Shown: positions 16,045 through 27,885 of the stretch, piece by piece
Numbering within the stretch: the stretch's first letter is position 1
Layout: each line of letters starts with the position of its first letter
NCBI GenBank assembly: GCA_963700285.1
Contig: CAVOXA010000001.1
Span: 992,001 to 1,056,000, forward strand
From: an uncultured Chloroflexia bacterium
GTDB taxonomy: Bacteria > Chloroflexota > Anaerolineae > JAAYZQ01
Reading direction: 5' to 3'
DNA: 64,000 bases
Position numbers and translations under genes: made by a program
Notes under the pieces: generated by a model
What the model was told of the DNA's origin: nothing
Databases searched by the model: none
Seen by the model: the letters and a program-made list of their open reading frames with translations, nothing else

Positions 16045-16124
16045 TTGCCAAGGGCCATGCTCTGTGCTATAATGCCGACGCTATATTTGTGGGTTCTTGG
16101 AAAAGTGGGGCCGCCCCACTTTTC
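16045..16124 (+). promoter_or_regulatory. nusA operon promoter plus rimP/nusA-leader-type hairpin
   Basis: TTGCCA-17-TATAAT (16045-16073); hairpin GAAAAGTGGGG-CCG-CCCCACTTTTC (16100-16124). Confidence 0.75.
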
Positions 16125-16191: not shown

Positions 16192-17916
16192 ATGAAAAGC
16201 GATTTTATGCTAGCGATCAATCAATTGTGCTCTGAGCGCAAGCTTTCGCATGAGGTGGTCCTGGAGGCAGTAGAAGCTGCGCTGGTTTCTGCATACAAGC
16301 GCAACTTTGGATCGGCTACCAACATCGAGGCGCGTGTCGAACCAAGTACAGGCGACGTCAGGGTGTTTGCCATCAAAGAGGTCGTCAAGAACGTGCAGGA
16401 CCCAAAAACAGAGATCTCGTTGGACGATGTGCGAGAGATCGATCCCGACGCGGAACTCGGGGGTACGGTCATGATTGAGAGTACCCCTCGTGACTTTGGG
16501 CGGATTGCTGCCCAGACGGCCAAGCAGGTGATCCTGCAGCGTATCCGCGAAGCCGAGCGCGATGCCCAGTATTCGGCTTTTGCCGATAGCGCGGGTGAGG
16601 TAGCGCTTGGAACAATCCAGAGCGTAGATTTTCATTCTGGTGATGTGGTCGTCAGCCTTGATGGAGCGGAGGCAATCCTGCCAGCTCGGGAACAGGTCTC
16701 CAACGAGCGCTACAGACGCGGTGCACGCTTGCGCGCCTATGTCGCGGACGTCCGCCGTGGCAGTCGGGGGCCGCGGATCACACTCTCCCGGCGCAGCCCA
16801 GCACTGTTGCGTCGCCTACTGGAGTTGGAGGTACCCGAAATTTTCAATGGTACCGTGGAGATCAAGGCGATGGCTCGCGAGGCGGGGTCGCGCTCAAAGG
16901 TAGCCGTACATGCTACCCAGGACGGTGTAGACCCAGTAGGTTCGTGCGTTGGTGTTCGCGGTGGGCGCATTCAGACGGTCGTCAACGAGTTGGGCGGTGA
17001 AAAGATAGACGTAGTGCAGTGGCACGACGATATTGGTAGTTTTATTGCCAACGCCTTGAGCCCTGCAAAGGTGATGAACGTGCTCCTGACTGATGATCCG
17101 CAGTCGGGAAAAACAGCCACCGTGATCGTCCCTGATCGGCAATTGTCCTTGGCGATCGGCAAGGAAGGACAGAATGCGCGATTGGCGGCCAAACTCACTG
17201 GCTGGCGCATCGATATCAAAAGTGCAACAGAGACCGCAGAAGAGACGCTTGGTCGCCTGGATGAGGTGGCCATACCTCTTGAGGATATGGATCTTCTCAC
17301 TCTGGCAGAGACACTGCTGCGGAAACGTGCAGCGGGGGATCTCAGCGAGGCAGAGCGTGCCTTGATCGATGCTGGGTTAGGGCGTGAAAGCGCGCTCGAC
17401 GTGGAATGGTCTGCCTCTGAGCAAGAGTCTGCGATCCAGGGTAGATCTGTTGGGGCCGAAGGCAGTGAAGAGGCGGGAACCATGCCTGTAGAAGCCATGT
17501 CGGGCGTGGAGAAGGCATCTGCGCCGAGTGATTTGCCTGACACGGATGCCATAGCCCTAGAAGATGTTGATCGGTCGGCGGAAGGGCTGGCTACGGCTGA
17601 CCGAATGGCTGTTGGCAAGGAATCCGCGATGATTGAGGGCGCGGTCGAGGATGAATCTGAGCTCAAGCCAACCTTTGAGGGGGAGCCCGTTGAGGATTCG
17701 TTGGGTTGGGTGGTCACAGAGCCTCCCAAGGAATACCAATACGATTGGGACGAGCCTTCGTGGGTGGAAGAGAAACCTGACTGGGAGATCGACTGGGAGA
17801 GCCAGGAGATTGAAGAGAAACCAGATCTGCCCATGCCCCAGAAGAAGAGGGGCCGGAAGAAAAAGGGTAGGCAGGCGTTCGACAGTAAGGATGGCCTAGG
17901 CTCTGACCGCTGGTGA
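16192..17916 (+). CDS. nusA: Transcription termination factor NusA with a long acidic C-terminal extension
   Basis: [59 protein letters not shown]. Confidence 0.97.
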
Positions 17917-17981
17917 GCATGATCTGTAGCGCCTTGCGGGGGTCTTCTTTTTGACCCACGGAAACTGCAGTCGCGGTGCTC

Positions 17982-18353
17982 ATGGGCGATTCAACGGAGG
18001 GGCAATTGCCGGTAAGGCAGCGGAAGCATGTGCCTCTGCGGACCTGTATCATCTGCAAGCAGAAGCGCCAAAAGCGGGATCTGATCCGGATCGTTCGCAC
18101 CCCTGAGGGGGGCATAGAACTTGACTCCCGGGGGAAGCTTTCTGGACGCGGCGCCTACTGCTGTCCCAATCGTACGTGCTGGGAGGCGGCTCTGGAGCCA
18201 GGCAGGTTGGGAAAAGTTCTCAAGAGTCGGTTATCTGCCGACGATTTGGCCCGCCTGTACGATAGTGTGAGTATAGCAGCCAGGCAGCTGCAGAAACGGG
18301 AAACGGAGGCCGGGCGCGATGCGTCGAACCGTGCCCCGGGGGGAGGTAGATAG
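17982..18353 (+). CDS. ylxR: YlxR/RnpM (DUF448) RNA-binding protein
   Basis: [21 protein letters not shown]. Confidence 0.9.
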
Positions 18354-20312
18354 ATGGGACGAGGATCTAAAGATGGGGGGCGGGGGCCGAATCGGAGCAC
18401 TGACTCGCAGTCGCGCGGTTCGGCTCGCAAACCTGGGACAGGAACGACAGCAGCGCCGTCTCAGACGGGGGCGCCTGGGAATCCCAAGGGAGGTACTGCT
18501 CCGGCAACATTGCCCGGTCCGCAGGTGCCCAGAGTGATCGAGCTGCCAGAGAGCCTTACGGTTCGGGATCTGGCGCGTGCGTTGCGCATGAGTCCCATTG
18601 ATGTGATCAAGGAGTTGATGACCAACGGCATTGTGGCTGGCATCAACCAGGAGATCGACTATGACACGGCCGAGATCGTGGCCAGCGAGCTGGGATTTGA
18701 GACCAGACCACTCCGGCTTGCAGAGATAGAGCAGGAAAAAGAAGAACAGGAGGAATTCAAGACTCTTTGGCACAGTCTGTTGGAGTCCGAATCGCCCGAG
18801 GCCTTGAAGCCCCGTCCTCCAGTGGTGACGGTGCTTGGTCATGTGGACCATGGCAAGACGACGCTGTTGGATGCGATCCGCGAAACAGACGTCGTGGCCA
18901 GCGAGTCCGGTGGGATCACCCAGCACATCGGTGCATACCAGGTAGAGAAGGATGGTCGCAAGATCACCTTTATCGATACGCCTGGTCACGAGGCATTTAC
19001 GGCTATGCGTGCCCGAGGGGCCCAGGTGACAGACTTGGCTGTGTTGGTCGTCGCTGCTGACGATGGCGTGATGCCCCAGACCAAGGAAGCGATCGACCAT
19101 GCCCGAGCCGCCGATGTGCCTATCATGGTGGCCCTCAACAAGATGGACAAGCCCTCGGCCCAACCAGAGCGGGTCAAGCAGCAGCTATCGGAAGTGGATC
19201 TGACCGTTGAGGATTGGGGTGGGGACGTCATCTGCATTCCGGTGTCGGCCACACACGGGCAAGGTGTCGACGAGTTGCTTGAGAACATCCTCCTGGTGAC
19301 TGAAGTCGCCGATCTGCGCAGCAATCCTGATCGTCCTGCTGTGGGCACGGTGATTGAGTCTGAGATGGACCGGCAGCGGGGACCCGTCGCCACCTTGCTG
19401 GTACAGGCTGGCACGCTGAGGGTGGGTGACGCGCTCACCATCGGTGTGATATCAGGCCGGGTACGGGCGATGATGGACTACCGGGGCAAAGATGTGCGTG
19501 AGGCGTTGCCTTCCACGCCGGTGCAGGTCATGGGCTTGGCGGATGTCCCTAGGGCTGGTGACATCTTTGAAGTGGTGGCGAGCGGCCGCGAAGCGCGGGC
19601 AATCGCAGCAGAACGTGCCGAGGACAAGCGCTTGGCTGGGCCAAAGGCAGCCAGACCCAAGATCCTGAGCCTGGACGAGATCTTTGGCCAGTTCTTGGCG
19701 GGCCAGACCGTTGAGTTGAACCTGATCCTCAAGGCCGACGTACAGGGCTCGTTGGAGCCGATAGTCAACTCCCTTGAGAGGCTGGGCGGCGACGGACCGC
19801 AGGTCAATATCCTGCATTCGGGCATCGGTGATGTCTCCGAGTCGGACGTTATGCTGGCATCTGCTTCCCAGGCCATTGTGCTTGGCTTCCATGTTGGCGT
19901 GGATGAGGCTGCACGCCGCATGGCTGGGCAGGATGGGGTGGATATCCGGCAGTATACAATCATCTACAATCTGATTGATGACGTGGACAAGGCTCTGCGG
20001 GGCATGCTGGAGCCCGAGTACGCGAAGGTTGTCATGGGCCATGCCGATGTGCGAGCGGTGTTTAGCATTCGGCGCCGTGGAACCGTGGCTGGTTGCTACG
20101 TGACCGATGGGGTGGTGACGCGCAAAGCGTGGGCTCGTGTCCAGCGCAATGGAGAAGAGGTCTTTGATGGTCCGCTCGATTCCCTGAAACGATTTCAGGA
20201 AGATGTGTCCGAAGTGAGGACCGGTTTCGAGTGCGGTGTGGGAGTCGCTGGTTTTGAAGACTTCCGAGAGGGAGACGTGCTCGAGTTCTACCGGGAAGAG
20301 CGAGTCAGCTAG
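18354..20312 (+). CDS. infB: Translation initiation factor IF-2
   Basis: RPPVVTVLGHVDHGKTTLLD, GGITQHIGAYQV, DTPGHEAF, KADVQGS. Confidence 0.98.
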   Translation: MGRGSKDGGRGPNRSTDSQSRGSARKPGTGTTAAPSQTGAPGNPKGGTAPATLPGPQVPRVIELPESLTVRDLARALRMSPIDVIKELMTNGIVAGINQEIDYDTAEIVASELGFETRPLRLAEIEQEKEEQEEFKTLWHSLLESESPEALKPRPPVVTVLGHVDHGKTTLLDAIRETDVVASESGGITQHIGAYQVEKDGRKITFIDTPGHEAFTAMRARGAQVTDLAVLVVAADDGVMPQTKEAIDHARAADVPIMVALNKMDKPSAQPERVKQQLSEVDLTVEDWGGDVICIPVSATHGQGVDELLENILLVTEVADLRSNPDRPAVGTVIESEMDRQRGPVATLLVQAGTLRVGDALTIGVISGRVRAMMDYRGKDVREALPSTPVQVMGLADVPRAGDIFEVVASGREARAIAAERAEDKRLAGPKAARPKILSLDEIFGQFLAGQTVELNLILKADVQGSLEPIVNSLERLGGDGPQVNILHSGIGDVSESDVMLASASQAIVLGFHVGVDEAARRMAGQDGVDIRQYTIIYNLIDDVDKALRGMLEPEYAKVVMGHADVRAVFSIRRRGTVAGCYVTDGVVTRKAWARVQRNGEEVFDGPLDSLKRFQEDVSEVRTGFECGVGVAGFEDFREGDVLEFYREERVS

Positions 20313-20407
20313 TCCAGCCCTTCTGCTCGATGGCCAGCCGTTGCGTCTGGCCCAACCAGGCTGGTTTTCTGCCAGTTTGGGGCGATTTTCGACAGGATGT
20401 ATACCCA

Positions 20408-20818
20408 ATGTCCACTCGTCGCCAGCGCCGTGTTTCAGAACTGATCCACCGTGAGCTTGGCTTGCTGCTATTGCGCCAAGTGCGCGATCCACGCCTGAGC
20501 GGTGTGACGATCACCAGCGTAGAAGTCACTCCCGACCTTTTGCTGGCTCGCGTCCGCTTTTCTGTTCTGGGAGAGCCGGAGGAAGAAGAGGAAGCAATGG
20601 CCGCTTTCCAGCATGCTGGCGGGTTCCTACGTACCCAGTTGGCGGCCAGGGTTCAGTTGCGTTCTGCACCAGAGCTGGTTTTTAGTGTGGACAAGAGCAC
20701 GGCCTATGCGCGGCGCATCGACGAGCTTTTGGAGCAGGTCAGACAGAGCAATGGGCTCGAAGCAAGTGCTGTAGAGCCCATTGAGGGGGATGCCGATGCA
20801 GGGCGAGATCCTGACTAA
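20408..20818 (+). CDS. rbfA: Ribosome-binding factor A
   Basis: RRQRRVSELI, VRDPRL, PELVF; follows infB. Confidence 0.93.
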   Translation: MSTRRQRRVSELIHRELGLLLLRQVRDPRLSGVTITSVEVTPDLLLARVRFSVLGEPEEEEEAMAAFQHAGGFLRTQLAARVQLRSAPELVFSVDKSTAYARRIDELLEQVRQSNGLEASAVEPIEGDADAGRDPD

Positions 20819-21788
20819 CGGGAGTCCAAGCCAGGGTCAGTCGGAGTCCATTGACCGCTTGTTGCAGCAAGCCAGCTGTCCGCTGTTGGTGACGCATGTA
20901 GCTCCTGATGGCGATGCCATTGGCTCACTGCTCGGTCTTGGGTGGTTCTTGCGGGCTCAGGGCAAAGACATCATCATGGCCTGTCAGGATCCTGTGCCTG
21001 AGGTCTATACCTGGTTGCCCGGGAGCAGCCAGATCGTCCAGCAAGGCGACGGCTCCCACGATTTGGTGATCAGCCTTGACTGCAGCGACCGGCGCCGCAT
21101 GGGGGATGTAGGCACGGGAAATGACAGCCTTGTACCCTTGCTCAATATTGACCATCACATAACCAATACCCATTTTGGCTCGCTCAACTGGGTGGACCCT
21201 TCCAGCGTGGCCACGGCTCAGATGGTCCTGACTCTGACGGACGCTTTAGGCTGGGAACTGACTGAGCACGCCGGCGTTTGCCTACTGACTGGGATTGTGA
21301 CTGATACTCGGTGTTTTCGTACGTCGAATGTTGATGTGGCCGCGCTCAGCGCCGTATTGAGGCTGATGGAGTCAGGGGCTTCACTCAGCGAGGTTACCCA
21401 ACGGGTCTTGGAACAACGCCCTCTTGCTTCTGTACGCCTCTGGGGGCAGGCGATAGACCGGCTTCAGTTGCAAGATGGTATTCTTTGGACGGAAATCACT
21501 CAGTCCATGCGTCAGCAGTGGTCGCTGGGCGAGGATGGGGATTCGGGACTGACCAACTTTTTATCCGGAGTACGGGAGTCCGGGATTGTCGTCGTGTTTA
21601 CCGAACGGGATGATGGGACGGTTGATGTGGGAATGCGAGCCAATCCCGGCCAAGATGTGGCGCAAGTCGCCCTCAGACTGGGCGGCGGTGGGCATCCCCA
21701 GGCAGCTGGTTGCACAATCAAAGGGACCCTGCCAGTGGCAAGAGAACAGGTCTTTGCCGAGCTGCGACGCACTCTGCCCATAGACTAG
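20796..21788 (+). CDS. nrnA: DHH/DHHA1 phosphoesterase (NrnA-like nanoRNase/pAp phosphatase)
   Basis: HVAPDGDAIGS, IDHH, GIVTDT, GGGGHPQAAG. Confidence 0.88.
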   Translation: MQGEILTNGSPSQGQSESIDRLLQQASCPLLVTHVAPDGDAIGSLLGLGWFLRAQGKDIIMACQDPVPEVYTWLPGSSQIVQQGDGSHDLVISLDCSDRRRMGDVGTGNDSLVPLLNIDHHITNTHFGSLNWVDPSSVATAQMVLTLTDALGWELTEHAGVCLLTGIVTDTRCFRTSNVDVAALSAVLRLMESGASLSEVTQRVLEQRPLASVRLWGQAIDRLQLQDGILWTEITQSMRQQWSLGEDGDSGLTNFLSGVRESGIVVVFTERDDGTVDVGMRANPGQDVAQVALRLGGGGHPQAAGCTIKGTLPVAREQVFAELRRTLPID

Positions 21789-22157
21789 GCGCAGGCCCTC
21801 AGCGTATCGCATCCTATGCCCAGGGTCTGGAGCCCCACCCTGGACGATACGCTTTCCAACCAAGTCACTTGGAGCTAGCCCATTGTCGACGCTCCTCAAC
21901 ATGATGGCGGGCTACCTGGGGGCTTCACGGCCCAGCTACCGAGGAATAGAATCCAGGAGCGGGCCAGTCGCTATCTGGATCCACAAGAGGGTCCCGTGTT
22001 CCGCTCCGACCTAGGGATCGGGGCGGTTTGTCGTTGGGGTTCTCTTGTGCCTATGCCTGGATGCGAACCAGGTGATTGTCTTGAAGCCAGGCGGCGCCGT
22101 TCGTCGTCCGCATGTGGTGACCCCCGGCAGGTATGGTTACCGGGACCAGGAGGTCAG

Positions 22158-23132
22158 ATGTCTGCAAGAGATTGCGCCAACTGCCCCAAGGCGCAGGTTG
22201 AGCCCATAGCCCGTTGGACGGCGCCCCGGCGCAGAGAACCTCTTTCCGGTATTCTGAATGTAGACAAACCGGCGGGCATGACATCTCATGACGTGGTTGA
22301 TGTTGTGCGACGGATCTCTGGCCAGCGCAAGGTCGGTCATGCGGGTACTCTGGATCCCATGGCAACGGGAGTATTGCTTCTATGCCTGGGCCAGGCCACC
22401 CGTGTGGCAGAGTACCTCGTGGCAGGTCGCAAACGCTACCGTGCGACTATCGTCTTGGGAATGACAACAGATACCTATGACGTGGATGGCGAGATGGCCA
22501 GCAGTGGTGGGCGGACTGACTTTTCTCGAGAGGAAGTTGATGCCGGTTTGGCGGCTTTTTCCGGGCACATCGAGCAAGTACCGCCCATGTATTCGGCCCT
22601 GAAGCGAGACGGACAGCCCCTGTACAAGCTGGCCAGGCGGGGTAAGACGGTTGAACGCGAGCCGCGGCCTGTCGTGATCTATGAGACGACGCTTCTGGAT
22701 TGGGAGGAGCCATCCTTGATCGTGGAAGTCGTCTGCTCGTCTGGGACCTATATCCGGTCCCTGGCTCATGACCTGGGGCAGCGCCTTGGTGGAGGGGCCT
22801 ATTTGGCCTCGCTGGTTCGCCTCAGCAGCGGGAGTTTTGAGCTTGAGGATGCCGTAAGCCTTGCGCGCTTGGAGGAGGCTTTTCAACATGGCCAGGAGAG
22901 CGCATACCTGATACCCAGCGATGAAGCGCTTCTCGATTGGCCCGCTATGGTAGTGGGTGTGGACGAGGTTCGTCGTATCGTGCATGGGCAACCGCTGCCA
23001 GGGGAACAGCCTGCCGCGGCAGAGATGCGACTTTGTCGCGCCTACTCTGTTCACGGCGATTTCCTGGCCATCATGGCCTATGAACCGGAGCGGGGCTGGT
23101 GGCAGCCCAAGAAGGTTTTTGCCTCGGGCTAG
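22158..23132 (+). CDS. truB: tRNA pseudouridine-55 synthase
   Basis: DKPAGMTSHDVV, KVGHAGTLDPMATG, QVPPMYSA, CSSGTYIRSL; AGGAGG RBS before ATG 22158. Confidence 0.96.
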   Translation: MSARDCANCPKAQVEPIARWTAPRRREPLSGILNVDKPAGMTSHDVVDVVRRISGQRKVGHAGTLDPMATGVLLLCLGQATRVAEYLVAGRKRYRATIVLGMTTDTYDVDGEMASSGGRTDFSREEVDAGLAAFSGHIEQVPPMYSALKRDGQPLYKLARRGKTVEREPRPVVIYETTLLDWEEPSLIVEVVCSSGTYIRSLAHDLGQRLGGGAYLASLVRLSSGSFELEDAVSLARLEEAFQHGQESAYLIPSDEALLDWPAMVVGVDEVRRIVHGQPLPGEQPAAAEMRLCRAYSVHGDFLAIMAYEPERGWWQPKKVFASG

Positions 23133-23209: not shown

Positions 23210-24646
23210 ATGGACGTGATAGATGATCTGGCCGTACTCGAGCTGCGGCAGGACACTGTCCTGACCATCGGCGTCTTTGATGGGGTGCATCTCGGACACC
23301 AGGCGCTGATTGGTGATATCGTAGGCCGGGCGCGGGCCACCGACCGGCTTGCAGCTCTGGTTACTTTTCACCCACATCCGGCGGCTGTGCTGGCGCCCGA
23401 TCGCGCGCCTCAGTACCTGACAACGCCCGGAGAAAAGGTCGCATTACTGGAAGGTCTGGGTCTGGATCTGATGGTGCTACTGCCCTTTGACCGCTGTGTG
23501 GCTGCCATGCCTGCCTTCGACTTTATGGAAGCGCTTTCCCGGCACCTACGGGTTCGGGAGTTGTGGGTAGGGGCCGGTTTTGCGCTGGGGCGTAACCGTG
23601 AAGGCGATACCATGCGGTTGCGGCAATTGGGCCAGGAGCTAGGATACAATATCCATGTGGTCGAACCCCTGCTCGATGGGGGCGAGACGATTTCGAGCAG
23701 CCGCATCCGTGCTCTTTTGCGCGGAGGCAGTGTGGAGGAAGCTGCACGCTTGTTGGGTCGCTACCCCAGCCTGTCGGGTGAGGTGGTGAGCGGCGCGCAG
23801 CGAGGTCGCGGACTAGGTTTTCCTACGGCCAACCTGCAGATCCGTCCTGAACGGGCGGTACCAGCGGATGGCGTTTATGCTGTTTTTGCGCTCCTGGGCT
23901 CAGAAAGGTACCAGGCGGTGGTGAACGTGGGTATGCGGCCTAGTTTTGACAATGGACAGCGGACTGTGGAGACGCATCTCTTTGACTTTGATCATGACAT
24001 CTATGGCTGTGACCTGGTCATCGAGTTTGTCACCCGGCTTCGTCCCGAGCGAAAGTTTGCCGATATTGCTGACCTAGTAACCCAGATCCAGCTGGATAGT
24101 GCAGAGGCGCGCCGGATCCTGGACAGCGAGCGGCACTCTGGCCGTCTTGCGGTCTCGACGGGAACCTTGGCAAGCTCACGACTGGACCCGAGGAAGGGCT
24201 CAGATCACGCAGCAGATGGTGGCCGACATTCCCTGGCCTGTCGCTACCGGTTTGAGGAGCTGGAACACACCGCTGACCGGGCGATCCGAGTCTGGGGCCA
24301 GGGGCTTTCCGATCTGTTCGTCGGTGCGACGCGCGGGATGTACAGTTTGATGGCAGATCTGGAGACGCTGGTAGCGGCTTCCTGGCGCCAGGTCGAATTG
24401 GAGGGATTGGACCGAGAATCGCTTCTGGTGAGTTGGCTCAACGAGCTTCTCTTTCTCACCGAGAGGGAGGGGCTCTTGTTCGTCGAGGCCCAGATCGAGA
24501 TGCTGACGCAGACAAAGCTGGTAGGGCGGGCCGGTGGGATCCATGGCCCGGTTGCGAAGGCCAGCATCAAAGCAGCAACCTTTCATGATCTTGTGGTGTC
24601 AAGAGATGGTGAAGGTTGGTCAACAGTCATTACCTTTGACGTGTGA
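23210..24646 (+). CDS. ribF: Riboflavin kinase/FAD synthetase fused to a C-terminal archease domain
   Basis: aa ~1-305 RibF (GVFDGVHLGHQ, ISSSRIR, GFPTANL, ETHLFDF); linker of ~35-40 aa; then archease (YRFEELEHTAD, LLVSWLNELLF, IKAATFHDL, C-terminal TFDV). Confidence 0.9.
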   Translation: MDVIDDLAVLELRQDTVLTIGVFDGVHLGHQALIGDIVGRARATDRLAALVTFHPHPAAVLAPDRAPQYLTTPGEKVALLEGLGLDLMVLLPFDRCVAAMPAFDFMEALSRHLRVRELWVGAGFALGRNREGDTMRLRQLGQELGYNIHVVEPLLDGGETISSSRIRALLRGGSVEEAARLLGRYPSLSGEVVSGAQRGRGLGFPTANLQIRPERAVPADGVYAVFALLGSERYQAVVNVGMRPSFDNGQRTVETHLFDFDHDIYGCDLVIEFVTRLRPERKFADIADLVTQIQLDSAEARRILDSERHSGRLAVSTGTLASSRLDPRKGSDHAADGGRHSLACRYRFEELEHTADRAIRVWGQGLSDLFVGATRGMYSLMADLETLVAASWRQVELEGLDRESLLVSWLNELLFLTEREGLLFVEAQIEMLTQTKLVGRAGGIHGPVAKASIKAATFHDLVVSRDGEGWSTVITFDV

Positions 24647-24730
24647 GCTTCAAGGCCCGAGAGCAGGGGGTTAATGCCGCTCTTTTGCCAGCGACAGGCG
24701 CTGGGCTCCGAGCCTGGAAAGGATTGGACG

Positions 24731-26185
24731 ATGGTCGGGAAATCAGACCTGGTGCGGATCAGTGAGTATGTCTGGGAGATTCCGACGAGTTACCGCTCAG
24801 ACATGAGGGTGCCGGCCCGTATCTATGCCAGCGAAAAGCTGCTGGAGCTTGCCTTCCGCGACCACTCCATGGAGCAGTTGGTTAACACGGCGGCCATGCC
24901 CGGCGTGGTCAAGCGGGTGCTGGTCATGCCCGATGCCCACCAGGGTTACGGTCCGCCCATCGGCGGTGTGGTAGCGACCCGCTATCCGGACGGCGTCATT
25001 TCGCCGGGGGCGGTGGGCTATGACATCAACTGCGGCGTCCGGCTCATGGCCTCGGATCTGCTCGCCGAAAAAGTGCGGGATGAGATGGGCGAGCTGATCT
25101 CGGCCCTGTTTCGTAACATTCCCAGCGGTGTGGGCAAAGGCGGTGGCGCGCGCCAGGTAGCAGGTCGGGAGATGGATCAGGTGCTGATCAAGGGTGCGGC
25201 CTGGGCGGTGAAGGCCGGCTATGGCCGGCCCGGAGACCTGGAGCGCCTGGAAGAGGGCGGCGCCATGGCCGGGGCTGATCCCTCGGTCGTGAGTCCGCGC
25301 GCCAAGCAGCGGGGAGGTCCGCAATTGGGTACCCTGGGCTCTGGCAATCACTTTATCGAGATCCAGGAGGTGGTTGAGATCTTTGATGACAGCGCAGCCC
25401 GTGCTTTTGGCCTGTTCGAGGGCCAGCTTGCTGTGGCCATCCATTCTGGCTCGCGTGGGTTGGGGCACCAGGTCTGCAGCGACTATGTCAAGGCCCTGCA
25501 GGGCGCAGTGCAAAAGTACAACATCCAGTTGCCGGACCGCCAGTTGGTGTGTGCACCCCTCGACTCGCCCGAGGGTCAGAGCTACTTCGGGGCGATGGCC
25601 GGGGCGGCCAACTATGCCTGGGCCAACCGGCAGTGCATGGCCCATCTGGCTCGTCAGAGCTTCGAAGAGGTACTGGCCGGCAAGGTCAGAGACTTTGACC
25701 TGCACACGGTGTATGACGTGGCCCACAACATTGCCAAGATCGAGGAACATGTGGTGGACGGCAATGTGATGAAGCTTTGCGTCCACCGCAAAGGGGCCAC
25801 CCGGGCCTTTGGTCCGGGCCACCCGGCAGTGGCCCGTGTCTACCGCGATGTCGGCCAGCCGGTCCTGGTGCCTGGCGACATGGGCACCGCTTCCTATGTG
25901 CTGGTGGGCACCGCCGACGCCATGGAGGAGAGCTTTGGTACCAGTTGTCATGGGGCTGGACGGGTGATGAGTCGCACAGCTGCCAAGAACAAGATCCATG
26001 GCGGGACGCTGCGCCAGGAGCTGGAGGCGCGGGGCATCCACGTTCGGGCGGGCAGCATGGCTGGTCTGGCCGAAGAGGCGCCCGATGCCTACAAGGACAT
26101 CGACGCGGTCATCGAAGTGGTGCACGGCGCCGGGCTGGCACGCAAAGTGGCCAAGCTGCGCCCTCTGGCAGTGATGAAGGGTTAG
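24731..26185 (+). CDS. rtcB: RtcB RNA 3'-phosphate ligase (archaeal/eukaryote-like type)
   Basis: [56 protein letters not shown]. Confidence 0.97.
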
Positions 26186-26277: not shown

Positions 26278-26997
26278 ATGGAGATTGATGGCCAGTTGGT
26301 TGAAGGGCGTTTCTTGTCCCGTGACAACCGGTTTCGGGTGACGGTAGAGGTGGATGGACAGGGTGTGTGGGCCCACCTGGCCAACTCGGGACGGTTGGGG
26401 GAACTGTTGGTGCCCGGTCGCCGGGTTGTCTTGGTCGAGCGTGCCGGCGCCCAGCGCAAGACCGGCTATGACTTGAGCGCTGTTTGGATGGATGATGCCT
26501 GGGTCTCGGTCGATGCCCGGCTGCCCAACGACCTGGTCGCCGATGCCCTGGATGCGGGCAAGCTTGGCCCTCTGGCTGGCTACCCGACAGTACGGCGCGA
26601 GGTGACCTTTGGCCGCAGCCGGCTGGATTTCCTGCTGGGGGCCGAGGATAGGCAGCCCTGCTTGGTCGAGGTCAAGTCGGTCACGTTGGTCGTGGATGGC
26701 TGGGCTTGTTTCCCGGATGCGGTGACCTTGCGGGGGCGGCGGCACCTGCAGGAGCTTGTTTCGGCCGTCGAGATGGGATATCGGGCGGTGGTGCTCTTTG
26801 TCGTCCAGCGCGACGATGCCCGGGGGCTGCGGCCCCACGACGAGTCGGACCCTGGTTTTGGCCAGACCTTGCGGTCCGTGGCCCAGCGCGGCGTGGAGGT
26901 CTATGCTTATGCCTGCCGTATTGAACCGGGACGGGCGATGATTGCCCGGCCCCTACCGGTCAATCTGGAATCTCTATCTGCAGTGCGGGAGAACTGA
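26278..26997 (+). CDS. sfsA: SfsA family DNA/RNA-binding nuclease-fold protein
   Basis: RDNRF, HLANSGRL, SRLDF, EVKSVT, FPDAVTLRGRRHL. Confidence 0.93.
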   Translation: MEIDGQLVEGRFLSRDNRFRVTVEVDGQGVWAHLANSGRLGELLVPGRRVVLVERAGAQRKTGYDLSAVWMDDAWVSVDARLPNDLVADALDAGKLGPLAGYPTVRREVTFGRSRLDFLLGAEDRQPCLVEVKSVTLVVDGWACFPDAVTLRGRRHLQELVSAVEMGYRAVVLFVVQRDDARGLRPHDESDPGFGQTLRSVAQRGVEVYAYACRIEPGRAMIARPLPVNLESLSAVREN

Positions 26998-27000
26998 CGG

Positions 27001-27885
27001 ATGCTCCATCGACTCATGGCCTTGCGGTTCGTACTCCTTTTTTGCATATTGCTGGTTGTTCTCTCCGCCTGCGGTGCTGGAGAGCCTACACTGACGCCTG
27101 AGGTCCGGGTTGTTGACTCTGAGCTGACCATTACGTCCACCCCCCGCCCTTCGCCGGCTTTCACTCCCACCCAATCCCTGACGCCTACTGCGACTCCGCC
27201 GCCCAGCGACACCCCGACGGCGGTGCCTACGGCGACCGCCACGCCTACGGCGACCGCCACGCCTACGGCGACCGCCACCTACACGCTGGAACCCACCGCT
27301 ACCCCGACGGTGGTACCTCCGACCGTCACCCCTGTGCCCTCGACGGCAACGGCCACGATCCCACCCGCCAGCCCGACGGCCACTGCGCTGGCGCCGACGG
27401 CGGAACCCCCGAAACCTGCCCCCACCTCCAGCGTGGAAGATGGCTACCGCTTTGACATCACGCTGCAGCGGATGCTACACATTGACGAGAACGGTGGCGA
27501 TGTGGGCAACCACAACATTTATGTGCATGTCTTTGATGCCCAAGGCAATCCACTGAACGGGGTGGTCGTTTGTCGTGTCTACGCCCTGCAGCTCCAGCCC
27601 CCGGATCCTCATGCCTGTCGCATCACGGGAGAAACCGGGCCGGGGCGCTTGCACTTTGACGTCTATGCAGGCGACATTGTTTTCGTGGCGACCAAAGACC
27701 CGGAGCACCGCCCTCTGAGTCCCCATACTCGCGGTCTAGAGCAGGAGCCGGCTGCGATGACCGACCTCCAGGAGCTGGTGGACAATGGCTACTGTGCGGA
27801 CGTTGAGGACTGCAAACGGCGTATTCCCATCAACAACCTCGTACGTTTTCACTACTCATATGAGGTCCATTTCAACCAGCGCTAG
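27001..27885 (+). CDS. Lipoprotein with a Pro/Thr-rich linker and an unknown C-terminal domain
   Basis: Lipobox LSAC; about 100 aa of TPTAT repeats; globular C-terminus. Confidence 0.8.
   Translation: MLHRLMALRFVLLFCILLVVLSACGAGEPTLTPEVRVVDSELTITSTPRPSPAFTPTQSLTPTATPPPSDTPTAVPTATATPTATATPTATATYTLEPTATPTVVPPTVTPVPSTATATIPPASPTATALAPTAEPPKPAPTSSVEDGYRFDITLQRMLHIDENGGDVGNHNIYVHVFDAQGNPLNGVVVCRVYALQLQPPDPHACRITGETGPGRLHFDVYAGDIVFVATKDPEHRPLSPHTRGLEQEPAAMTDLQELVDNGYCADVEDCKRRIPINNLVRFHYSYEVHFNQR
27224..27279 (+). repeat. 18-bp coding tandem repeat (about 3 copies) encoding TPTATA
   Basis: GCCTACGGCGACCGCCAC x3. Confidence 0.85.

What the first reader, a model, noticed from the sequence alone, without database searches (positions are those of the whole stretch)
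23210..26185. FAD synthetase (RibF) fused to archease, directly upstream of RtcB: a candidate flavin-linked RNA-repair module
Seen in sequence: one 478-codon ORF holds a complete RibF, a ~35-40 aa linker, and a complete archease ending in ...TFDV-stop. There is no internal stop and no in-frame ATG with an RBS before the archease part. rtcB follows with all catalytic motifs. Established: archease activates archaeal/eukaryote-type RtcB by promoting its guanylylation, and uses an N-terminal HTAD Asp plus the terminal Asp and C-terminal carboxylate to bind metal. The C-terminal position of archease here keeps that free end. Human RTCB is oxidation-sensitive and is protected by the flavoprotein PYROXD1. 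Inference: the fusion could tether flavin or nucleotide metabolism to RNA ligation, or could simply ensure constitutive archease supply through an essential gene. I do not know of this fusion being characterised.
Basis: partly seen in the sequence, partly recalled or inferred. Interest (0 to 1): 0.85.

Follow-up and report, generated by a model that had tools for sequence, protein, structure and literature searches.

The report
Flavin enzyme repeatedly fused to archease
In this bacterium the only enzyme that makes the flavin cofactors FMN and FAD carries, as its tail, the only copy of archease (the helper of the RNA-repair ligase RtcB); the join is real and has been made or undone several times in this class, likely because the two genes overlap in one operon, and a working link between flavin and RNA repair remains untested.

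Summary
Observation confirmed. Window 23210-24646 encodes an intact RibF (aa 1-310), a 35-aa linker and an intact archease ending in a free ...TFDV. It is the genome's only ribF and only archease. The only rtcB follows, closing a nusA-infB-rbfA-truB operon. An independent contig spans the join without gaps. All 23 genomes of this Anaerolineae family are fused. Across 100 loci holding both genes, 60 (13 families) are fused and 40 separate, usually overlapping. A TruB+RibF tree needs at least 5-6 gains or losses and rejects a single fused clade. Best reading: overlapping operon neighbours merged repeatedly and each half keeps its own job. The flavin/PYROXD1 idea is unsupported: no redox domain, no tree-corrected link to oxygen respiration, and rtcB has moved away in 8 of 13 fused families. 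Two results keep a physical link open. No other junction of the operon is fused in these loci. Two AlphaFold models score pTM 0.83-0.84, more than a dangling domain should give; this has no control, and covariation was inconclusive. No paper found; this scan noted the same fusion at least five times before on other DNA.

The parts
16045..16073 (+). Extended sigma-70-like promoter (TTGCCA-17-TG-TATAAT) ahead of nusA; likely start of the operon
   Evidence: 11 of 12 consensus matches; consensus match only
16192..21788 (+). nusA (16192-17916), rnpM/ylxR (17976-18353), infB (18354-20312), rbfA (20330-20818), DHH/NrnA-like (20781-21788): housekeeping operon upstream
21996..23132 (+). truB, tRNA pseudouridine-55 synthase (true start uncertain; the match begins near aa 84 of this frame)
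23210..24646 (+). RibF-archease fusion gene, 478 aa (P0001); only ribF and only archease in the genome
23246..23704 (+). FMN adenylyltransferase (FAD_syn) domain, aa 13-165; D24, H27 and H30 each in 296 of 296 fused sequences
23753..24121 (+). Riboflavin kinase domain, aa 182-304; PTAN T206 in 294, N208 in 292 and E254 in 293 of 296
24140..24244 (+). Linker, about aa 311-345, variable in length and sequence, low pLDDT at 317-342; ends in Cys344 (24239-24241), kept in 111 of the 120 closest homologues
24251..24646 (+). Archease domain, aa 348-478 plus stop; D356 (296 of 296), K454 (295), D477 (295) and a free C-terminus
24731..26185 (+). rtcB, 484 aa, the only RtcB in the genome; motifs PDAHQG, DINCG, SGNHF, IHSGSRG, DVAHN and SCHGAGR present
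26278..26997 (+). sfsA nuclease; also follows rtcB in 4 of the 6 related loci L001-L006

Best explanation
This is a real RibF-archease fusion protein that likely arose, here and several more times in the class Anaerolineae, by small frame-joining mutations between two overlapping neighbour genes, and each half likely keeps its own job. Shown: in many Anaerolineae archease and rtcB sit behind truB-ribF at the end of the nusA-infB operon; unfused archease genes usually overlap or abut the ribF stop; the catalytic residues of all three domains are conserved. Inferred: the RibF half makes FMN and FAD. The archease half inserts its two aspartates and terminal carboxylate into the RtcB active site to place the metal that drives GTP guanylylation. 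Archease needs a free C-terminus but tolerates N-terminal cargo, so it can fuse only to the gene upstream. Once its own ribosome-binding site and start are lost, it is locked to an essential gene that supplies it constitutively. No flavin signal needs to pass to RtcB.
For: 33 of 40 separate ribF/archease pairs start within 10 nt after the ribF stop or overlap it, and 10 of 40 are ATGA/GTGA overlaps (my count from its table). G040 has the two genes in frame with a single TAG between them. A TruB+RibF tree needs 10 changes of state, 5-6 of them forced by strongly supported branches, and one fused clade is rejected (AU p=1.7e-5). Linkers differ among families, 40-77 aa between the two anchor motifs. 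The seven f12 fusions still carry a Met 17 codons before HTAD, while the window has no candidate start. Archease is also fused behind an unrelated AAA_33 P-loop domain, ahead of rtcB, in G270 of another class. No fusion to rtcB in 65 loci, as the free C-terminus predicts (PMC3973293 section 15 and bioRxiv 2023.03.30.534986 section 8). Archease (179 of 221 genomes) and close RtcB homologues (174 of 221) have almost the same family tallies in the class. 33 of the 34 fused genomes whose rtcB is not adjacent have one elsewhere. Where archease is away from ribF, its upstream genes are miscellaneous. No RibF or archease column separates fused from unfused forms cleanly.
Against: The junction is a specific hotspot. 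It is fused in 60 of 100 loci (13 of 30 families). truB-ribF is fused in 0 of 119 loci (45 families, 25 of them with gaps of 15 nt or less) and DHH-truB in 0 of 89. Pure chance among neighbours does not predict this, although ribF-archease gaps are the tightest (median 8 nt against 21). No loss within the window's family: 23 of 23 genomes (one cut by a contig end, one frameshifted elsewhere). Both AlphaFold models score pTM 0.83 and 0.84, where my arithmetic gives 0.62-0.69 if archease were unplaced. That points to a packed interface, but there is no control and the coordinates were not visible. Counts of changes cannot tell gains from losses.
Confidence: 0.62

Rival explanations
1. RibF and archease are true binding partners in Anaerolineae. 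Archease would dock on RibF (perhaps at the N-terminal adenylyltransferase strand, residues about 4-9, against archease residues 345-349), which would stabilise or sequester it and could make RtcB activation depend on RibF's ligand state. Repeated fusion would then be selected for.
For: pTM 0.83 and 0.84 in models from two families with very different linkers. Only this junction fuses. Repeated changes of state. Archease stays attached to the adenylyltransferase domain after the kinase domain decays in family f39. The top inter-domain covariation patch is 6/347.
Against: Covariation was underpowered (296 sequences, about 143 effective). Top inter-domain scores fell within the range of tight within-cluster shuffles, and the best patch was reached by 12 of 40 shuffles. 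Many families keep archease far from ribF, and three well-known control genomes with archease lie outside Chloroflexota altogether. No fusion-specific surface column. pTM has no control here.
Confidence: 0.22
2. One reading: the fusion ties flavin to RNA repair and protects the oxidation-sensitive RtcB cysteine, as PYROXD1 does in animals, possibly through Cys267 and Cys344.
For: Cys267 is in 120 of 120 and Cys344 in 111 of 120 close homologues, although the linker is otherwise variable. In raw counts, strong heme-copper oxidase hits are more common in fused genomes (19 of 46) than in adjacent-separate genomes (5 of 40).
Against: No redox domain. RibF makes flavins and is not known to reduce them (established knowledge). 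Both cysteines are missing from most other fused families, and Cys267 also occurs in unfused RibF. The oxidase excess comes mostly from one clade and disappears in independent pairs (5 pairs, median p 1, underpowered). Six fused families have oxidase hits in at most one genome each. Guanylylated RTCB is already protected, and PYROXD1 and archease exclude each other (PMC12263435).
Confidence: 0.06
3. Archease has been co-opted to serve RibF itself, for example by placing a metal or removing pyrophosphate at the adenylyltransferase site, with RtcB activation secondary.
For: Archease positions a metal on an NTP gamma-phosphate in the RTCB complex. Archease stays with ribF after rtcB moves away in 8 fused and at least 3 unfused families, and stays with the adenylyltransferase domain in f39.
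Against: Archease and RtcB are present and absent together by family, while ribF is nearly universal (218 of 221 genomes match P0001; families f4 and f29 have RibF but no archease or close RtcB). Ordinary RibF works without archease (established).
Confidence: 0.07
4. An assembly or frameshift artefact joining two genes.
For: The genome is a draft assembly with 6.5% estimated contamination.
Against: An independent contig crosses the join without gaps. 120 of 120 best homologues and 23 of 23 family genomes are fused.
Confidence: 0.01

Closest known systems
Archease-RtcB tRNA-splicing / RNA-repair operon (P. horikoshii, T. thermophilus; PMC3973293, PMC4604427) and the human RTCB-Archease complex (8ODO/8ODP)
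   Same: Archease gene directly upstream of rtcB; same fold (rmsd 1.6-1.7 A to 8BTX, 8ODO and 8ODP); HTAD Asp, terminal Asp and free C-terminus kept; RtcB motifs intact.
   Different: Archease is not a free ~16 kDa protein but the tail of a 52 kDa flavin enzyme, inside the nusA-infB-truB operon, with no start codon of its own.
Bifunctional prokaryotic FAD synthetase RibF (TIGR00083; C. ammoniagenes 2X0K, T. maritima 1S4M)
   Same: FAD_syn plus Flavokinase domains; target TM-score 0.85-0.90; catalytic motifs kept; the usual place after truB.
   Different: Carries a C-terminal archease. No such form was found in the papers searched, and no solved structure matched both parts.
PYROXD1-RTCB redox protection (PMC12263435)
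   Same: A flavin-associated protein linked to an RtcB ligase.
   Different: PYROXD1 is an NAD(P)H oxidoreductase that plugs the active site and excludes archease. RibF is a kinase/adenylyltransferase with no redox domain and is joined to archease itself.

Membership tests
Bifunctional RibF | FMN adenylyltransferase domain with the GxFDGxHxGH motif | tested here: met
   PF06574 at aa 13-165; D24, H27 and H30 in 296 of 296
Bifunctional RibF | Riboflavin kinase domain with PTAN and a catalytic Glu | tested here: met
   PF01687 at aa 182-304; T206, N208 and E254 conserved; E254 as the catalytic base is from recall
Bifunctional RibF | Score over the curated family cut-off | tested here: met
   TIGR00083 239 bits against a cut-off of 184
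Bifunctional RibF | Makes FMN and FAD | not testable with these tools
   Inferred from motifs and from being the only copy
Archease | Full PF01951 domain and archease fold | tested here: met
Archease | Two conserved aspartates plus a free C-terminal carboxylate forming the metal site | tested here: met
   D356 in 296 of 296, D477 in 295 of 296, stop directly after V478; feature defined in PMC3973293 section 15; residue mapping by motif alignment
Archease | Small stand-alone protein | tested here: not met
   Fused; no in-frame start within 29 codons before HTAD
Archease | Activates RtcB guanylylation | not testable with these tools
   Only co-occurrence and adjacency
Archease-RtcB operon | archease next to an rtcB with intact metal and guanylylation motifs | tested here: met
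   adjacency in 24 of 60 fused loci
PYROXD1-type RtcB protector | Pyridine-nucleotide/FAD oxidoreductase domain | tested here: not met
   Pfam finds only FAD_syn, Flavokinase and Archease
PYROXD1-type RtcB protector | Goes with aerobic life | tested here: inconclusive
   Raw excess of strong oxidase hits in fused genomes, none after tree correction, only 5 pairs
Physically coupled RibF-archease module | Defined interface between the halves | tested here: inconclusive

The most novel reading that the evidence does not exclude
Archease in Anaerolineae has a second, undescribed partner. It docks on the adenylyltransferase end of FAD synthetase, and this contact has driven the same fusion at least five separate times. 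RibF would hold or release the metal-bearing tip, so that RtcB activation, and with it RNA repair, follows flavin or ATP status. This would be a bacterial link between cofactor metabolism and RNA ligation, independent of the animal PYROXD1 route.
Probability: 0.15. Interest if true: 0.8.

Novelty: new variant of a known kind. Interest (0 to 1): 0.42.

Why it matters
At the least, databases name these proteins only as riboflavin kinase/FAD synthetase, so archease is hidden in many Anaerolineae and their RtcB would be misread as archease-independent. The class also offers a natural series of separate, overlapping, in-frame-with-one-stop and fused forms, for studying how fusions arise and why only one junction of an operon fuses. 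If the predicted packing is real and regulatory, it would be a new route from flavin or nucleotide metabolism to RNA repair, testable with three purified proteins.

Tried and rejected
Inverse-covariance coupling on 296 fused sequences: only about the top ten pairs looked like real intra-domain contacts, and inter-domain pairs were scattered. The top-10 mean (6.9) was within tight shuffles (6.6 +/- 0.3, maximum 7.0) though above looser ones (maximum 6.5), and the best patch was reached by 12 of 40 shuffles; inconclusive. Archease-only tree: 10 changes but only 1 forced by supported branches, too poorly resolved to use. A Cys267-Cys344 redox pair as the reason for fusion: absent from most fused families, so rejected as a general explanation. 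Aerobic lifestyle as the driver: not supported after tree correction. Fusion outside the class: in a 301-genome phylum sample only G000 had an archease frame of 430 aa or more among the 102 matches listed. Twelve other long frames were fetched; apart from G270 and G060 they read by eye as chance open frames. The 'longer' archease search listed only RibF fusions in its top 120 of 229, so it could not show other partners. Among 50%-identity representatives, 9 of the best 150 were confirmed with all three domains over the Pfam cut-offs, plus one with partial archease and one N-terminal fragment. Sequencing runs held only small shares of the stretch (0.14 or less), so no habitat or expression claim is made. 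A 15-bp stem-loop at 24443-24475 inside the archease coding region was not followed up. Papers: 0 hits for archease + riboflavin kinase and for FAD synthetase + fused + RtcB. Listings for searches showed no paper on this fusion, judged from titles and abstract starts. Most subscription papers and bioRxiv supplements were not searchable, and no supplements were read.

Full report
Observation. The frame 23210-24646 translates without a stop into 478 aa. Pfam finds FAD_syn (13-165), Flavokinase (182-304) and a full-length Archease (348-478), and NCBIfam scores RibF over its cut-off. The AlphaFold model has mean pLDDT 89, with only 317-342 below 50. Foldseek matches it to C. ammoniagenes and T. 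maritima FAD synthetases and to human, P. horikoshii and M. thermautotrophicus archease. No ATG, GTG or TTG lies in frame in the 5-29 codons before HTAD. It is the only ribF and only archease of the genome, and the rtcB behind it (24731-26185) is the only RtcB. The genes close a nusA-rnpM-infB-rbfA-DHH-truB run with a strong sigma-70-like site at 16045 and no terminator-like site between 24646 and 24731 (consensus matches only).

Not an artefact. All 120 of the best 120 homologues have the same three domains. A contig of an independent run crosses the join with two substitutions and no gap. All 23 genomes of the family have their archease in a long frame with RibF; one is cut by a contig end and one is frameshifted elsewhere. 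Named relatives are Anaerolineae, Caldilineae or Chloroflexota.

Both halves look active. Among 296 fused sequences the adenylyltransferase D24, H27 and H30 are invariant and the kinase T206, N208 and E254 nearly so. Archease E350, D356, K454 and D477 are kept in 294-296. The archease metal site is two aspartates plus the C-terminal carboxylate (PMC3973293, section 15 read). In the human complex this tip enters the RTCB active site, and one complex was crystallised with an N-terminally tagged archease (bioRxiv 2023.03.30.534986, section 8 and passages read). So a fusion at the N-terminus is compatible with function, while one at the C-terminus would not be. T. thermophilus RtcB needs archease for multiple turnover (PMC4604427, first quarter and passages read).

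Distribution. In 221 genomes of the class, 179 have archease and 174 a close RtcB homologue, with nearly the same families. I fetched 150 loci chosen from the best-scoring rows, so this is not a random sample. Sixty are fused (13 families), 40 have ribF and archease adjacent but separate (18 families), and the rest show only one of the two genes. Of the 40 separate pairs, 33 overlap or start within 10 nt of the ribF stop, and G040 is in frame with one TAG. rtcB follows in 24 of 60 fused loci. Two are cut short. In the other 34 (8 families) it is not adjacent, and 33 of these genomes have it elsewhere. In a 301-genome phylum sample no other archease frame reached fusion length, but G270 carries archease fused behind an AAA_33 P-loop domain ahead of rtcB.

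History. On concatenated TruB+RibF trees (111 and 56 rows; loci lacking a long TruB match, and one long branch in the smaller tree, were left out) the fused state needs 10 changes, of which 5 and 6 are forced by strongly supported branches. One fused clade is rejected (p-AU 1.7e-5). The root is unknown, so gains and losses cannot be told apart. Unrelated linkers, kept internal Mets in some families, and fused proteins whose nearest RibF belongs to unfused families (5 of 252) favour several gains. The archease-only tree is unresolved.

Mechanism. The simplest account is repeated merging of overlapping, translationally coupled neighbours (inferred). Archease accepts N-terminal cargo and cannot fuse to rtcB, and loss of its own start locks it to an essential gene. 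Each half then works as usual, RibF on riboflavin and FMN and archease on RtcB. Confidence about 0.6.

What counts against this. First, only this junction fuses: 0 of 119 truB-ribF and 0 of 89 DHH-truB pairs share a frame, although 52 of the 119 truB-ribF gaps are 15 nt or less. Second, the window's model has pTM 0.83 and a model from family f37, with a linker of about five residues, has 0.84. Simple arithmetic gives 0.62-0.69 if archease were unplaced. Covariation neither confirmed nor excluded an interface. Third, in family f39 archease stays joined to the adenylyltransferase domain after the kinase domain decays, which an internal deletion would also give. A real contact therefore keeps about 0.2.

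The flavin-protection idea. PYROXD1 acts as an NAD(P)H-controlled plug that excludes archease, and guanylylated RTCB is already protected (PMC12263435, abstract and Discussion read). RibF has no redox domain. Cys267 and Cys344 are conserved in this family only. Strong heme-copper oxidase hits are commoner in fused (19 of 46) than in adjacent-separate genomes (5 of 40), but mostly in one clade, and five independent pairs show no trend. The idea is not supported.

Novelty. No paper was found: 0 hits, and nothing relevant in the listings. Passages of PMC13247085, PMC9600594 and PMC6777427 showed no mention. No supplements were read. The scan's own notes report this fusion five times on other DNA with the same operon reading. 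I had written that reading down before looking, and the counts above are my own. It is a new variant of two known kinds of protein; the repeated, junction-specific fusion and the predicted packing are what make it worth a bench test. Interest 0.42.

Noticed in passing
G101 (L146:2199-3167), G060 (L193:2376-3566), G137, G148 (L151); P0231, P0299: In family f39, G101 and G060 have RibF with a lost or decayed kinase domain, fused to archease. Neither PF01687 nor the CTP-dependent kinase PF01982 was found in three f39 genomes (95-97% complete) or in G148. How they obtain FMN is unexplained.
   Followed up: partly
G270, L189:1801-2871 (+): An AAA_33 P-loop (kinase-like) domain in frame with archease, directly upstream of rtcB, in another class of the phylum. 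It could be an RNA end-processing partner or another neighbour fusion.
   Followed up: partly
G023, G026, G070, G087, G102, G111, G117, G124, G145, G154, G155, G173, G191, G204, G228: RtcB matches begin near residue 91-100 inside frames of about 880-1040 aa, which suggests an intein-sized insertion near the catalytic Cys motif in many Anaerolineae. The window's RtcB has none.
   Followed up: no
G000:C1:658710-659777: An RtcA-family RNA 3'-phosphate cyclase lies far from rtcB; present in 5 of 5 family genomes tested.
   Followed up: no
window 24008-24010 and 24239-24241: Cys267 (120 of 120) and Cys344 (111 of 120) are conserved in this family despite a hypervariable linker. Three of five separate archeases of family f2 also have an N-terminal Cys, and their RibF has Cys267.
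   Followed up: partly
window 27001-27885: A predicted lipoprotein-like ORF (LSAC motif, recalled) with Pro/Thr repeats and a C-terminal domain without a Pfam match follows sfsA; a weak paralogue lies on contig C9.
   Followed up: no
L187, L188 (G325, G384): An NADPH-dependent FMN reductase-like gene lies just upstream of archease-rtcB in both genomes checked of family f92: the only other flavin-related neighbour seen.
   Followed up: no
L144 (G037): A bacterial archaeo-eukaryotic release factor family 10 gene lies upstream of archease-rtcB, a ribosome-rescue-like pairing.
   Followed up: no
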